Translations under genes and position numbers: made by a program
Notes under the pieces: model-generated
Databases searched by the model: none
What the model was told of the DNA's origin: nothing
The model's input: only the letters and a program-made list of their open reading frames with translations
Shown: piece after piece, positions 3,098 through 48,110 of the stretch
How positions within the stretch are numbered: position 1 is the first letter of the stretch
Layout: each line of letters opens with the position of its first letter
From: Octopus vulgaris
Lineage: Eukaryota
Assembly: GCA_951406725.2 (NCBI GenBank)
Contig: OX597827.1
Coordinates: forward strand, 26,412,001-26,476,000
Reading direction: 5' to 3'
Length of the DNA stretch: 64,000 nt

Positions 3098-5051
3098 GAA
3101 TAGGAGTTGCATAGATTATTATTATCATGTGATTTAATGTTTTGCAGGCTTCTAACTGGAACCTGGTTCATTCAGGATCAGATTACCGAATGGAGGAATA
3201 CAGGAAGTACAAGATGGATATTGGTAATCGAAGATGGAGACTGGATGTCCAAGAGGTCTACTGGAAAATAGGTACTGTTAGAATTGTGATATGCATACTC
3301 CAGCAACACCAGATGTATTAGAAGGGAGAATTTCTCGTACCATGTGGCTGGACAGGAAGTTGCTGGCGTCTAGGTATCGCACGGGCCTTTGAAGGGACTT
3401 GGAAGCCGGCGAGAGAGTGTATGTGTTTTTATATAGGTGTATCTGCATGCATGTGTGTGTGTATGTATGTGTATATACCAGATGCATGAGTGTTTGGATG
3501 TAGGTGCATTATTAGTTGTATGAATATGTGTGTGCCTGCTTGTGAATACGCATGCATTAGGGCCTGCTGTATACACCTGCATGCGCAAGCATGTTTAGGA
3601 TGAGTATTTGGGTGTGCGTGTATGTAAGTGTGTACATTCTCCTATTCGTGTATAAACGTGTATGCGTGCATGCTTACGCGTGTGTGTTTGTTTGGTGTAT
3701 GCGTGTGTGTACATATACATTCATGTTTTCGATACTCTCGTGTGCAGGCGAGTCAGCGTGGTTGCAACAGTTTTACTGGGGGATGAATGGGCGTTGGATT
3801 GAGGTTTGCTGGTGACGCGGATATGGAAAAGACGAGTGGAGAGATATAAGTACACAGATGTGTGTAGGCGTATGTGCGGGTGTGAGAGTGGCCATGTGTG
3901 GCTCTGTGTGTGTACGTAGATGTGTATGCATCTGTGTGTGCCTGCGATTTTGCGTTGATTACAGAGCCGAAGGTGGCGGGTTATAGGGGTGCATACGTTT
4001 GTAGGGTTGGCCAGCGATCTGCATAAGCATCGGTGGTTAGGAGACCTATTTGGGTTGTGAGGCTGACAGTACTGAGAATCAGACAATGTTAAGGTGGTAT
4101 ATCGGGATTATCGACAGCCAATGATTTGAAGTTCATCAGGAGGGCGTACCTCTGATGGCAGCAATAAGATAGTTTGTGTTTCCTGTTGATAGATATTTCA
4201 GGCTGGTGAAGAATGCGGAGATGTCTATTGCCGGCGCCGGATGCGTAGGGTGGAGTTCTACCAATCAAGGTTCATTCAACGTTAGGGCTTTCATTCCACA
4301 CCACAAATTCCTCCTACTATTAGTCCCACAAATGTTACCACTACCGCTAACACCACCACTACCAACACCTCACCCACACCACCGCTATTACATATATCTC
4401 ATAATAGACATCACTACCGCCACAAACACCACCACCATATTCGCCCCTACTAATACCAATAAGACGATTATGGTAACCATTACCAACACGACTACTACCA
4501 GTACAACATGTATAACGGCCAGTACTAACACAGCCACCCACACTACCATCATGACTAACACCAAAACCCACACCTTCCACCACCATCACTACCACAAAAA
4601 CTACCATCACTACGACAATCGCAAACACCAACACCACCATCACAACCATAACCACCACCACTATCACCAACACCACAACCACCAACATCACCATCACTAT
4701 TACAACCATCACTATCACTCCCTCTACTATCACTACCACTACAACTATTACCACCCCACCCCTACCACCACCAACACCACCAATAATGTCATGACTAACA
4801 CCACCCCCATCACTCAAACACTAACACCAACACCTCCGTAACTAGTACAAATTCTGCCACCACTAGCACCTCTACCACTAATACTATCCACACCACTAAC
4901 ACCACCACCCTTATCAGCCTCAACCCTGCCGCTGCAGTCGCTACAATTCGTCCGACGCCTTCCTCTGATCTTCACGATTCGGAAACAGAAAATGTTAATT
5001 CTGTGACATATTAAGTATGTATGTATGTATGTATGTATGTATGTATGTATG

Positions 5052-11793: not shown

Positions 11794-12731
11794 AATCAGT
11801 TCGAATACGCTTGAGGCACGTTCGAACCTGGGAAGAAGATACTTACTGCGTTTTGTCACGGAAAATACAGGGTTATTCAAAATAAATAAACCGATTTCAT
11901 TATGCAATATTTTAATAAGGCAAAGTAATAGAAAACTCCAGCTGAGTCACAAGTATTTACTCACAATCAACTTTTATTTCCTGTCTTACAAGTGTTCGAT
12001 GTGGCCACCACCCTCAGCACGGGCAACATCAATGCGATAAGAGAATTCCTCCCAGACGCGTATCAGCATATCACGATCCATTGAGATGATCGCTGTTGTT
12101 ATTCGATATTTAAGGTTATCGAGGTTAGTGGGTAGCGGTAGAACATAAATGCGATCTTTTACATATCCCCACAAGAAAAAAAATCTTAAACATCAAATAA
12201 CAACAGCGATCAACTGAGAGGATCGTGATATGCTGAAACGCGTCTCTGAGGATTTCTCTTATCGCATTGATGTTGCCCGTGCAGCAGGAAATAAAAGTTG
12301 ATTGTGAGTAAATACTTGTGACTTAGCTGGAGTTTTCTATTGCTTTTCCTTATTAAAATATTGCGTAATGAAATCGATTTATTCTTTTTGAATAGCCCTG
12401 TATATCCCGTTTGTTGACAAATGGTATGTAGATCAATTCACAGCGTCATCTACCCAGACCGTGAGATGCAAGCATTTCGGAGTAGTTATCTCCTCTTCGG
12501 TGATCAGTCTCTTCAATCAGCTCGTAGCGCCGCCTGCCTGGTGTCCGTGATCGAAGAGGAGATAACTACTCCGAAATGCTTGCATCTCACGGTCTGAGTA
12601 GGTGGCGCTGCGAACTGATATGGGTGTATACTCACCACTTGTCAACAAAAGGGATATATTTTCCTTAAAAAACGCAATTACTAACTTGTTCACCGGTTCG
12701 AACGTGCCTCAAGCGTATTCCGACTGATAAC
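11794..12731. mobile_element. Palindromic fold-back (MITE-like) element whose left arm is interrupted by a younger transposon
   Basis: ATCAGTTCGAATACGCTTGAGGCACGTTCGAACC (~11796) is mirrored by GGTTCGAACGTGCCTCAAGCGTATTCCGACTGAT (~12695). Inner arms AGACCGTGAGATGCAAGCATTTCGGAGTAGTTATCTCCTCTTCG (~12456) and its reverse complement (~12552). Confidence 0.8.
11868..12400 (-). mobile_element. Non-autonomous Tc1/mariner-superfamily (DD37D-like) derivative with long TIRs and TA target duplication
   Basis: TA|CAGGGTTATTCAAAA...TTTTGAATAGCCCTG|TA, with TIRs of ~115 bp plus a second inverted segment. Internal 11986-12174 (-) encodes a transposase C-terminus (FFLWGYVKDRIY...LKYRITTAI...VWEEFSYRIDVARAEGGGHIEHL). 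Confidence 0.88.
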
Positions 12732-43235: not shown

Positions 43236-43244
43236 TTATATATA

Positions 43245-43450
43245 TATATATTATATTAAATTAGAGATAAAGCCACTATTAGGCAAATCAAACAGTGAAA
43301 ATCATAAGCCAATACATAGAAAAAAATCAATAAAAATATATAATATAAATATAAAAAATATATAATATAAAATTCAAAATTAAAATATTTAAATTAAAGT
43401 TAAAATTTAAAAAATTATTTAAATAATTTAAAGTTATAAATTTTAAATAT
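43245..43450 (+). repeat. AT-rich interspersed repeat, copy 1 (inverted partner at 45165-45335)
   Basis: CCACTATTAGGCAAATCAAACAGTGAAAATCATAAGCCAATACA; its reverse complement lies at ~45262-45305. Confidence 0.85.
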
Positions 43451-43985
43451 ATATATATATATATATCCTTGCTCCCTACTTTTCTTTTTCTTTCTCTTTC
43501 TTCCGTGCTCTCACGTGACCGCATTCAAACCGGTCTTTTCGGCTTGACTGCTGCCATGTTAACGTTTGTTTTCGTTTTGCCGCAAAGGCATTTTTCATAT
43601 ACGCCAGCCAAGATAAGTTAAAAATTGTCTAAAGACGTAAGACGCCCGCTGTTTTTGTCCTGCATACCATTCTTATTTTTTTTATTTTTTGTTTCTTGTA
43701 TTTATATTCGTGTGGCATCCTGTCTTTGTTTCGTATACATTCGATCCTCTTTCCAAGAAATCTAATGCCTGTGGCTTAGTTTTTCATTGGGGCTGGCCGG
43801 TTCGGAGTGATATCGAGATTAAACAGCCGAAATTGCTAAGATGATCCGGTTCCGACTGAAGATTAGAGGCTTCGAGTGACCCGTCTGTTTTTTTGTGTCA
43901 TCTCTTTGTGTGTTTTTGCGTTCTTCTTCCACTTTGTAATTTATATTTTATATTTAATTTCTATACATATATATATATATATATA

Positions 43986-44692
43986 TAAGAAATATTGAAT
44001 TTCTAAATCTCTCGTAGAGACATGTACGGTGGCGGGGCGATAGAATGGTTGTATACTGTCAATCTAACAAGAACCTGACAGTAGGGGGTACACCACCGCT
44101 GTATAGCCCTAGGAAGCATCGAACGCCTCCTGATGGCTTTGACACATCTTTCCCTGTGTCCTTATATACATATACGAAGGGAGACAAACACCCCCGGCTG
44201 CCGGAACTGCATCTAGGGACACCGTGTTTCAGGATCGTTGTCCTTCATCGGCCTAGAGTAGCAGACACCGGTCAGCTGGTGATATTTGCCTCGACTTCGT
44301 AATTGTATATATCTATATTCAGTGAAGTCTATTCACTGATTATCAAAATCACGAGAATCTACGAGAGATTTAGAAATTCAAAATTTCTTATTTTGATAAT
44401 CAGTGAATAGACTTCACTGAATATAGATATATACAATTACGAAGTCGAGGCAAATATCACCAGCTGACCGGTGTCTGCTACTCTAGGCCGATGAAGGACA
44501 ACGATCCTGAAACACGGTGTCCCTAGATGCAGTTCCGGCAGCCGGGGGTGTTTGTCTCCCCTTCGTATATGTATATAAGGACACAGGGAAAGATGTGTCA
44601 AAGCCATCAGGAGGCGTTCGATGCTTCCTAGGGCTATACAGCGGTGGTGTACCCCCTACTGTCAGGTTCTTGTTAGATTGACAGTATACAAC

Positions 44693-44699
<7 letters not shown>
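43986..44699. mobile_element. Near-perfect palindromic element (308-bp arms) in (TA)n carrying a well-formed hammerhead ribozyme in each arm
   Basis: 44041-44348 is the reverse complement of 44391-44699 (one homopolymer indel seen); 43986-44018 is mirrored at 44358-44390. Confidence 0.9.
44482..44527 (+). ncRNA. Type I hammerhead ribozyme (mirror copy at 44212-44257, minus strand)
   Basis: TCTAGG-CCGATGA-AGGA-CAACGA-TCCT-GAAAC-ACGGT-GTC-CCTAGA: 6-bp stem I, 4-bp stem II, stem III, GUC cleavage triplet; one core variant (U4C). Confidence 0.8.
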
Positions 44700-44757
<58 letters not shown>

Positions 44758-45116: not shown

Positions 45117-45164
<48 letters not shown>

Positions 45165-45165
<1 letters not shown>

Positions 45166-45335
45166 ATATTTAAAATTTATAAGTTTAAATTATCTAAATA
45201 ATTTTTTAAATTTTAACTTTGATTTAAATATTTTATATTTTTTATATTTATATTTTATATTTGTATTGGCTTATGATTTTCACTGTTTGATTTGCCTAAT
45301 AGTGGTTTTATCCCTAATTTAATATAATATATATT
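45165..45335 (-). repeat. AT-rich interspersed repeat, copy 2
   Basis: Reverse complement of 43245-43450 with indels. Confidence 0.85.
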
Positions 45336-45398
45336 TATACTATAAAATTGGATTTAATCCTAAATCTAATTTTTCCCTGTAAGTTTAGATTTACTCCC

Positions 45399-47594: not shown

Positions 47595-48110
47595 CTGTGA
47601 GGTAAAAAGTTTGCTTTTCAACCACGTGGTTCCCAGTTCAGTTCCACCGCCTATATATAGTTAATACAAACATGAAAACACAACAATACGCGGACGTGGA
47701 ACAAGTATAGTATTATTGGACGCTCAGGAAAGAAGGAAAGAAGGAGGGTTTAACGTTTCGAGCGGATCTCTTCGTCAGAAACATAGGAAAAGGAAAGATC
47801 CAAAGAAGGGAAGACAGAGGAAAAAATCGCCAACGGTACACACGCGGTCACAAAGACACACGCGGGCACAAATACGCGTAAATACACATACAAGATGTAT
47901 ATATATATATGACCTTCACCACCTCTTGACAACCGGTGCTGGTTTGTCTTCGTCCCCGTAACTTAATGTTTTGGTAAAAGAAGCCAATAGAATAAGTACC
48001 AGGCTTTGAAAATAAATAAATACTGTGATCAATTTATTCCACAAAAATTCTTCAAGGTGGTGCCCAAGCATGGCCGCTGTCTAATGACTGAAACCAGTAA
48101 GAGGTAAAAT
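47595..48110 (+). mobile_element. Family B SINE interrupted by a PLE-type hammerhead fragment
   Basis: Head at 47595-47650; body resumes at ~47925 (TTGACAACCGGTGCTGG...CCCCGTAACTTAA...AGCATGGCCGC...AATGACTGAAAC). Confidence 0.75.
47660..47855 (-). mobile_element. Short PLE pseudo-LTR-related fragment with a hammerhead motif (47748-47782)
   Basis: Minus strand GTTT-CTGACGA-A-GAG-ATCCG-CTC-GAAA-CG-TT-AAAC, then TTCCTGAGCG...TAATAC. Confidence 0.78.

What the first reader, a model, noticed from the sequence alone, without database searches (positions are those of the whole stretch)
43986..44699. Very young palindromic hammerhead element whose two arms are circular permutations of one ~360-nt unit
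Seen: the plus strand reads X(43986-44018) - 22 bp - A(44041-44348), while the minus strand from 44699 reads A then X directly. The unit order A-X-spacer-A is therefore only consistent with a tandem or circular template of about 360 nt. A contains the best-formed hammerhead in the window (6-bp stem I, GUC). The arms differ by about one indel in A and one substitution in X, with (TA)n on both sides and no coding capacity. Established: retrozymes are small non-coding hammerhead retroelements that form circular RNAs. Inference: a candidate active retrozyme/circRNA family, integrated as an inverted dimer.
Basis: partly seen in the sequence, partly recalled or inferred. Interest (0 to 1): 0.72.

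Follow-up and report, generated by a model that had tools for sequence, protein, structure and literature searches.

The report
Penelope-pasted two-armed hammerhead retrozyme
This 714-base palindrome is one young copy of a many-hundred-copy, non-coding 363-base repeat with a predicted self-cutting hammerhead RNA motif, and its two back-to-back arms end at two fixed points 55 bases apart, which likely records a borrowed Penelope-type jumping-gene enzyme copying the RNA, possibly a circle, onto both sides of one DNA cut.

Summary
The element is one insertion of a 363-nt tandem, non-coding type I hammerhead repeat (852 exact hits to one 24-mer in this genome). The kind is known: animal non-LTR retrozymes. 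The 'circular permutation' is a Penelope-like (PLE) footprint. In 34 of 34 scorable two-armed insertions one arm ends at unit position ~310 and the other at ~365; one exception turned up among ten loci interrupted by a second element. A coding PLE in the same genome follows the same rule (6 of 6). Arms of one insertion share their source haplotype, run through the cleavage site (1 of 87 stop there) and are not fold-back copies. This fits twin target-primed reverse transcription on a circle or an uncleaved multimer; the circle is unproven. Against 'active': the core carries U4C family-wide, and this locus has one hammerhead per strand, buried in a predicted long hairpin, so it is probably a dead-end product. 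No partner PLE with matching ends was found. This scan reported the same kind and end rule earlier for sister families elsewhere in this genome.

The parts
43985..44349 (-). Left arm: one whole unit, U1-365, ending at the long (L) 3' site
43985..44039 (-). 55-nt 'tail' (spacer + X) between the short (U310) and long (U365) end sites
44212..44257 (-). Type I hammerhead motif, left arm; predicted cut after 44218
44350..44357 (.). 8-base filler at the 5'-to-5' junction; resembles the bases next to it (joining scar, inferred)
44358..44700 (+). Right arm: U332-363 then U1-310, ending at the short (S) 3' site
44482..44527 (+). Type I hammerhead motif, right arm: 6-bp stem I, U4C core, 4-bp stem II, near-palindromic stem III, predicted cut after C44521
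43968..43987 (.). (TA)n target, left; 2-3 bases shared with the arm end
44698..44754 (.). (TA)n target, right; 2-3 bases shared with the arm end
43466..43987 (+). Host context, not part of the element: a separate, older ~520-nt repeat family in whose TA tail the element sits

Best explanation
This is a young, probably dead-end insertion of a non-coding 363-nt hammerhead repeat (an animal non-LTR retrozyme) that was likely pasted in trans by a Penelope-like RT/GIY-YIG enzyme, which would have nicked both strands of a (TA)n target and primed one cDNA from each nick. Steps: (1) tandem copies elsewhere are transcribed (inferred; 8 of 67 mapped insertions hold two hammerheads on one strand). (2) The RNA is cut by paired hammerheads and closed to a 363-nt circle, or stays an uncleaved multimer (inferred; I put the circle at about 55%). 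(3) The enzyme starts at two fixed sites, U310 and U365 (the two fixed ends are shown; the enzyme is inferred). (4) Each cDNA runs a variable distance, often past one unit and through the cleavage site (shown). (5) The two cDNA ends are joined head to head by microhomology or short filler (junctions shown; repair route inferred). The result is a palindrome whose arms are permutations of one unit.
For: Two fixed 3' ends, variable 5' ends; 43 of 67 mapped insertions are head-to-head. 34 of 34 scorable ones pair one short with one long end, 9 unscorable; 6 of 6 in the set picked only by the hammerhead pattern. Same rule in a coding 781-aa RT+GIY-YIG element of this genome, 6 of 6 two-armed copies, 35-nt tail and in a sister retrozyme family, 11 of 11 scorable of 15. 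77 of 98 fixed 3' ends abut TA-rich sequence against 7 of 24 outer 5' ends; 11-13-bp target duplications at six less simple sites. Arms share the source haplotype: 79 of 91 minor-allele comparisons agree against 11.5% between loci. 1 of 87 arms reaching the cleavage site stops there, about 3% expected from random stops; 49 of 99 arms exceed one unit. Successive rounds in an arm differ no more than the two arms do (difference 0.2%, CI -0.15 to 0.49; 23 loci). Fold-back excluded in 20 of 29 simple loci, this one included; none has a symmetric junction. Monomer folded as a circle: -132 kcal/mol, z -6.7; sister family z -4.2; neighbouring control repeat z 0.35 and -0.19. 70 of 116 predicted pairs kept in the 58%-identical sister family against 44-52 when slid; hammerhead stems and C3-G8/U3-A8 covary. 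Literature: tandem/inverted copies, one-sided tail and (TA)n targets in PLEs (PMC8557442); two RT start sites bounding the tail, both strands cut and extended (PMC11167929).
Against: No PLE with ends homologous to the unit among 40 GIY-YIG loci. The tail is 55 nt against 30-40 nt in published PLEs and 35 nt in the coding family here. One short/short locus, L186, which carries a truncated second element. Two of the three locus sets were picked by queries that include an end region and long matches, which inflates arm lengths. U4C is reported to lower cleavage considerably in vitro (PMC3088659), and a PLE hammerhead was not needed for insertion in vitro (PMC11167929), so an uncleaved linear template fits too. 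Both-side pair changes in the sister family (19) barely exceed the best slid control (17), and the antisense monomer also folds well (z -5.6), so the fold says little about strand or circularity. Haplotype comparisons are not independent of each other.
Confidence: 0.72

Rival explanations
1. Same PLE mechanism, but the template is always a linear, uncleaved tandem transcript; the U4C hammerhead is weak or vestigial and no circle takes part.
For: U4C in 96 of the first 100 listed hits; no pile-up of 5' ends at the cleavage site; hammerhead dispensable for insertion in vitro (PMC11167929); genomic dimers exist; 8 of 9 Xenopus retrozyme dimers did not cleave in vitro (bioRxiv 2026.07.22.740005).
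Against: Arms reach 855-866 nt while no array longer than about 2.4 units was seen in 67 insertions; successive rounds are no more diverged than arms; no common 5' stop that would mark a transcript start; hammerhead helices covary between families. A young, homogeneous source array that I did not sample would explain all of this.
Confidence: 0.35
2. The second arm is a fold-back (self-primed) copy of the first cDNA, as proposed for rotifer Penelope inverted repeats.
For: Arms share haplotype; model proposed in PMC3846280.
Against: In 20 of 29 loci the short-end arm reaches further 5' than the long-end arm, and the long arm has a tail the short arm lacks, so neither can template the other; no junction is symmetric within 10 nt; arm lengths are uncorrelated.
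Confidence: 0.05
3. Assembly or library fold-back chimera.
For: Arms unusually alike (1 difference in 334; P about 0.009 at the family mean).
Against: Flanks are different repeats, not mirror images; the ends follow the family's short/long rule; 43 other-junction head-to-head copies exist; the arms differ at two places.
Confidence: 0.03
4. A DNA-level element (MITE or fold-back transposon) with long terminal inverted repeats, or a SINE moved by a LINE.
For: Palindromic shape; AT target; 5' truncation with inversion also occurs in LINE twin priming (recalled).
Against: The two termini are different sequences; 24 of 67 insertions are single-armed; units run in tandem; two fixed 3' ends and no poly(A) tail.
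Confidence: 0.05

Closest known systems
Animal non-LTR retrozymes (Cervera and de la Pena 2020, PMC7229834; passages and two sections read)
   Same: Type I hammerhead in a tandem, non-coding unit of 150-450 bp (mussel 350-390 bp), GC under 50% (45.5% here), target duplications over 4 bp, strongly self-paired predicted monomer; PLE mobilisation proposed there.
   Different: Core is U4C; cleavage and circles untested here; the passages I read do not describe head-to-head arms with two fixed ends (the word 'inverted' does not occur in the main text).
Retrozymes as non-autonomous PLE derivatives (Li, Clavereau, Pollet 2026, bioRxiv 10.64898/2026.07.22.740005; parts 1-3 of 5 read)
   Same: Same conclusion on origin; same unit size range.
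   Different: Their evidence is co-occurrence and pLTR homology in vertebrates; mine is insertion anatomy, and I found no homologous pLTR.
EN+ Penelope-like elements: PAc of Anolis (PMC11167929), Naiad/Neptune/Penelope structures (PMC8557442), Adineta Penelopes (PMC3846280)
   Same: Partial tandems, inverted 5'-truncated arm, tail at one end only, two start sites, AT or (TA)n targets, duplications of about 10 bp, hammerhead in the terminal repeat.
   Different: No ORF; the whole element is one repeat unit; tail 55 nt; ends share 2-3 bases with the target.
Non-autonomous Chlamys elements such as MRC1 (PMC8557442, passage)
   Same: Non-coding PLE passengers with pLTRs and head-to-tail multicopy insertions.
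   Different: Those share 3' sequence with an autonomous family and belong to a clade reported to lack canonical hammerheads.

Membership tests
Animal non-LTR retrozyme | Type I hammerhead motif in each unit | tested here: met
   Motif and stems found, kept across copies, covary with sister family; core is the U4C variant; no Rfam hit
Animal non-LTR retrozyme | Tandem units of about 150-450 bp | tested here: met
   363-nt unit, arms up to about 2.4 units; 8 of 67 with two hammerheads on one strand
Animal non-LTR retrozyme | No coding capacity; GC under 50%; target duplication over 4 bp | tested here: met
   Longest ATG-ORF 38 aa sense, 85 aa antisense; GC 45.5%; 11-13-bp duplications at six sites
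Animal non-LTR retrozyme | Self-cleavage of the RNA | not testable with these tools
   Hammerhead fold is 5.4 kcal/mol above the local minimum as a monomer; stem III can pair between two copies at -10.7 to -11.7 kcal/mol; predictions only
Animal non-LTR retrozyme | Accumulation as circular RNA | not testable with these tools
   Only contigs were available and no holder is on record as RNA
PLE-mobilised non-autonomous element | Partial tandem and inverted 5'-truncated arms | tested here: met
   43 of 67 head-to-head; variable 5' ends
PLE-mobilised non-autonomous element | Tail at one end only (two start sites) | tested here: met
   34 of 34 scorable; 8 more short/long and one short/short among ten two-armed loci carrying a second element
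PLE-mobilised non-autonomous element | AT-rich or (TA)n target | tested here: met
   77 of 98 fixed 3' ends
PLE-mobilised non-autonomous element | Sequence shared with an autonomous PLE's terminal repeat | tested here: inconclusive
   None among 40 GIY-YIG loci, mostly one family; most PLE families of the genome were not sampled
Autonomous PLE | RT + GIY-YIG ORF | tested here: not met
   No ORF in the unit
MITE / fold-back DNA transposon | Identical inverted termini fixed in all copies | tested here: not met
   Termini differ; single-armed and tandem copies are common

The most novel reading that the evidence does not exclude
Each two-armed insertion is a fossil of one Penelope dimer copying a single 363-nt RNA circle twice at once, rolling past the ligated hammerhead site from two fixed starts: direct genomic evidence that an animal circular RNA is a retrotransposition template, with a ready-made in vitro test.
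Probability: 0.4. Interest if true: 0.7.

Novelty: new member of a known kind. Interest (0 to 1): 0.42.

Why it matters
Animal retrozymes are known to make abundant circles, and Penelope-like elements were proposed as their carriers, but the link rests on co-occurrence and terminal homology. This family adds the insertion footprint: two fixed start sites, one per arm, the same rule as a coding Penelope element of the same genome. It names the nucleotides (U310, U365) at which a purified enzyme should start and predicts longer-than-unit cDNA from a circle, so the open question of how retrozymes move becomes directly testable. My seven literature searches showed no paper with this footprint in a retrozyme or a cephalopod retrozyme; supplements were not seen. 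The locus itself is an ordinary young copy.

Tried and rejected
Rfam on the window and on the right arm: no hammerhead family hit; only microsatellite-driven miRNA noise. Public runs: no RNA holder listed on record; three runs guessed to be RNA hold contigs over the unit, but contigs cannot show strand, ends or level, so no verdict on expression. The central junction was not bridged by any listed contig of four other runs; a hole proves nothing, so no verdict on whether the insertion is polymorphic. Partner search: none among 40 GIY-YIG loci; a wider protein search was not completed. A shared upstream sequence at L072 and L107 first looked like a 5' transduction or a partner's body; it is a separate site-specific element. 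Pile-up of 5' ends at the cleavage site or at U64: none. A genomic source with this locus's private variants: the 275G 20-mer has 3 hits, two being these arms and one an unrelated single-arm change. The AT-rich inverted repeats at 43239-43466 and 45150-45339 are 80% alike copies of another repeat, not part of the element. Look-ups of earlier notes by sequence and near this place were empty.

Full report
What is in the window. The window lies on contig C14 of a 2.8-Gb animal genome of 227 contigs; it is probably a cephalopod (my inference from size and repeat make-up, and the wording of earlier notes). The palindrome is as described. Read in hammerhead sense, the unit U is 363 nt. The left arm is U1-365 on the minus strand, the right arm U332-363 plus U1-310 on the plus strand, with 8 filler bases between their 5' ends and (TA)n outside both 3' ends. 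The arms differ by one C-run indel and one substitution. The hammerhead is type I with a 6-bp stem I, 4-bp stem II and GUC at 44519-44521, but its core is CCGAUGA. Rfam does not score it. There is no sizeable ORF.

The family. A DNA search gave 2037 first-look candidates; the 40 scored are 96-98% identical. Exact patterns give 852 hits near the 3' end and 180 on the hammerhead; of the first 100 listed, 96 have C4 and 4 have U4, so U4C is the family state. From 90 fetched loci I mapped 67 distinct insertions (a few are fragments, and L002 and L072 later proved to be two halves of one). 43 are head-to-head and 24 single-armed. 3' ends fall at U~310 (short) or U~365 (long); 5' ends are scattered.

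The end rule. I saw the two fixed ends. Ten two-armed loci interrupted by a second element add 8 short/long, one short/short (L186) and one unscorable. A sister family, 58% identical over the whole unit, gives 11 of 11 scorable of 15. A coding element with an intact 781-aa RT plus GIY-YIG ORF gives 6 of 6, with a 35-nt tail. 77 of 98 fixed ends abut TA-rich DNA, and six less simple sites show 11-13-bp duplications. Craig 2021 (PMC8557442, passages) describes partial tandems, inverted 5'-truncated arms, a tail often at one end only and (TA)n targets for PLEs. Frangieh 2024 (PMC11167929, parts 1-2 of 4) shows a PLE protein cutting and extending both strands, starting at two internal sites that bound the tail, with a predicted dimer. 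The 'circular permutation' is therefore the PLE tail on a tandem template.

What the template was. At common variable non-CpG sites the two arms of one insertion agree in 79 of 91 minor-allele comparisons and successive rounds in 35 of 44, against 11.5% between loci: both arms come from one source lineage, probably one molecule. They are not fold-back copies: in 20 of 29 simple loci, this one included, the short-end arm reaches further 5' than the long-end arm, and no junction is symmetric, which argues against the self-priming idea in PMC3846280 (passages). Only 1 of 87 arms that reach the cleavage site stops there, and 49 of 99 arms exceed one unit, a figure inflated by my queries. A self-cleaved linear monomer is thus excluded as the usual template. 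Rounds within an arm are no more diverged than the two arms (difference 0.2%, CI -0.15 to 0.49), as a monomer circle predicts, but a young homogeneous source array predicts the same. The cleavage-to-cleavage monomer folds strongly (z -6.7; sister family -4.2; neighbouring control repeat 0.35 and -0.19; antisense -5.6), and 70 of 116 pairs are kept in the sister family against 44-52 for slid controls. The hammerhead helices and the 3-8 core pair covary between the families, so the motif has been under selection in the lineage.

Is it active? Not shown. Perreault 2011 (PMC3088659, passage) notes that U4C lowers activity considerably in vitro yet still permits viroid infectivity. The short, near-palindromic stem III suggests cleavage as a dimer (PMC4209133, passages; duplex prediction). 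This locus has one hammerhead per strand and folds into a hairpin that buries it, so it is a product; candidates for sources are the 8 of 67 insertions with two hammerheads in tandem. It is young for the family: 1 difference in 334 bases, the lowest of 31 loci, family mean 2.0%; gene conversion between arms could also give that. Public runs under four organism labels hold the family but give no verdict on expression or on this junction.

What is missing. No autonomous partner with homologous ends among 40 GIY-YIG loci, most of one family. No cleavage or RNA data.

Comparison and verdict. It works like a non-autonomous PLE and meets every sequence-level feature of animal non-LTR retrozymes (PMC7229834, passages and sections 14 and 17), whose authors already proposed PLEs as carriers; Li 2026 (parts 1-3 of 5) adds pLTR homology in Xenopus. 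A 2026 octopus repeat annotation does not mention ribozymes in its main text (PMC13282606, passages). Supplements of these papers were not seen and may list cephalopod families. The insertion footprint is a useful addition, but each element of it is known from PLEs, and this scan has reported it for sister families in this genome. New member of a known kind; interest 0.42.

Side result. A 1.74-kb element with one 474-aa zinc-knuckle ORF and no RT inserts at exactly U64 of this family with a 12-bp duplication; 20 of the 24 closest 3'-end hits are at that site. It is absent from the window's copy, and earlier notes already cover it.

Noticed in passing
L134:1572-3315; also L135, L136, L179-L193: A 1.74-kb one-ORF element (474 aa, CCHC knuckle, ORF1/ZCCHC3-like by Atlas features, no RT) sits at exactly U64 of this retrozyme family, 30 nt before the hammerhead, with a 12-bp duplication; 20 of the 24 closest hits are at this site, some stacked in tandem. 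An 85%-identical relative abuts the matching site of the sister family (L194). Likely a site-specific half-LINE; noted earlier by this scan.
   Followed up: partly
L062:437-990; L229-L258: Sister retrozyme family, 360-nt unit, 58% identical, U3-A8 hammerhead core, 2724 first-look candidates, same short/long end rule.
   Followed up: partly
L058:481-5312; L199-L228: Young coding Penelope-like family: 4.7-kb unit, intact 781-aa RT+GIY-YIG ORF in many copies, U3-A8-type hammerhead motif read by eye about 80 nt before the 3' end, 35-nt tail; many short copies begin near unit position 4290.
   Followed up: partly
L061:1321-4483: A second Penelope-like family with a 766-bp perfect inverted arm, so very recent.
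   Followed up: no
window 43466-43987: Separate ~520-nt repeat (3581 first-look candidates, 90-96% identical) ending in (TA)n, some copies with an inverted 3' arm; possibly another PLE-type passenger with a decayed hammerhead-like motif near 43857.
   Followed up: partly
window 43239-43466 and 45150-45339: AT-rich inverted pair, 80% alike, belonging to another dispersed repeat (matches in L024, L120, L179); it brackets the element and two other repeats.
   Followed up: partly
window 12551-12586 (+) and 47752-47778 (-): Weaker hammerhead-like motifs from the loose scan.
   Followed up: no
unit position 127-128 in family copies: About a fifth of copies lack one G in stem III, which makes it a perfect palindrome, the form best suited to dimeric cleavage.
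   Followed up: partly
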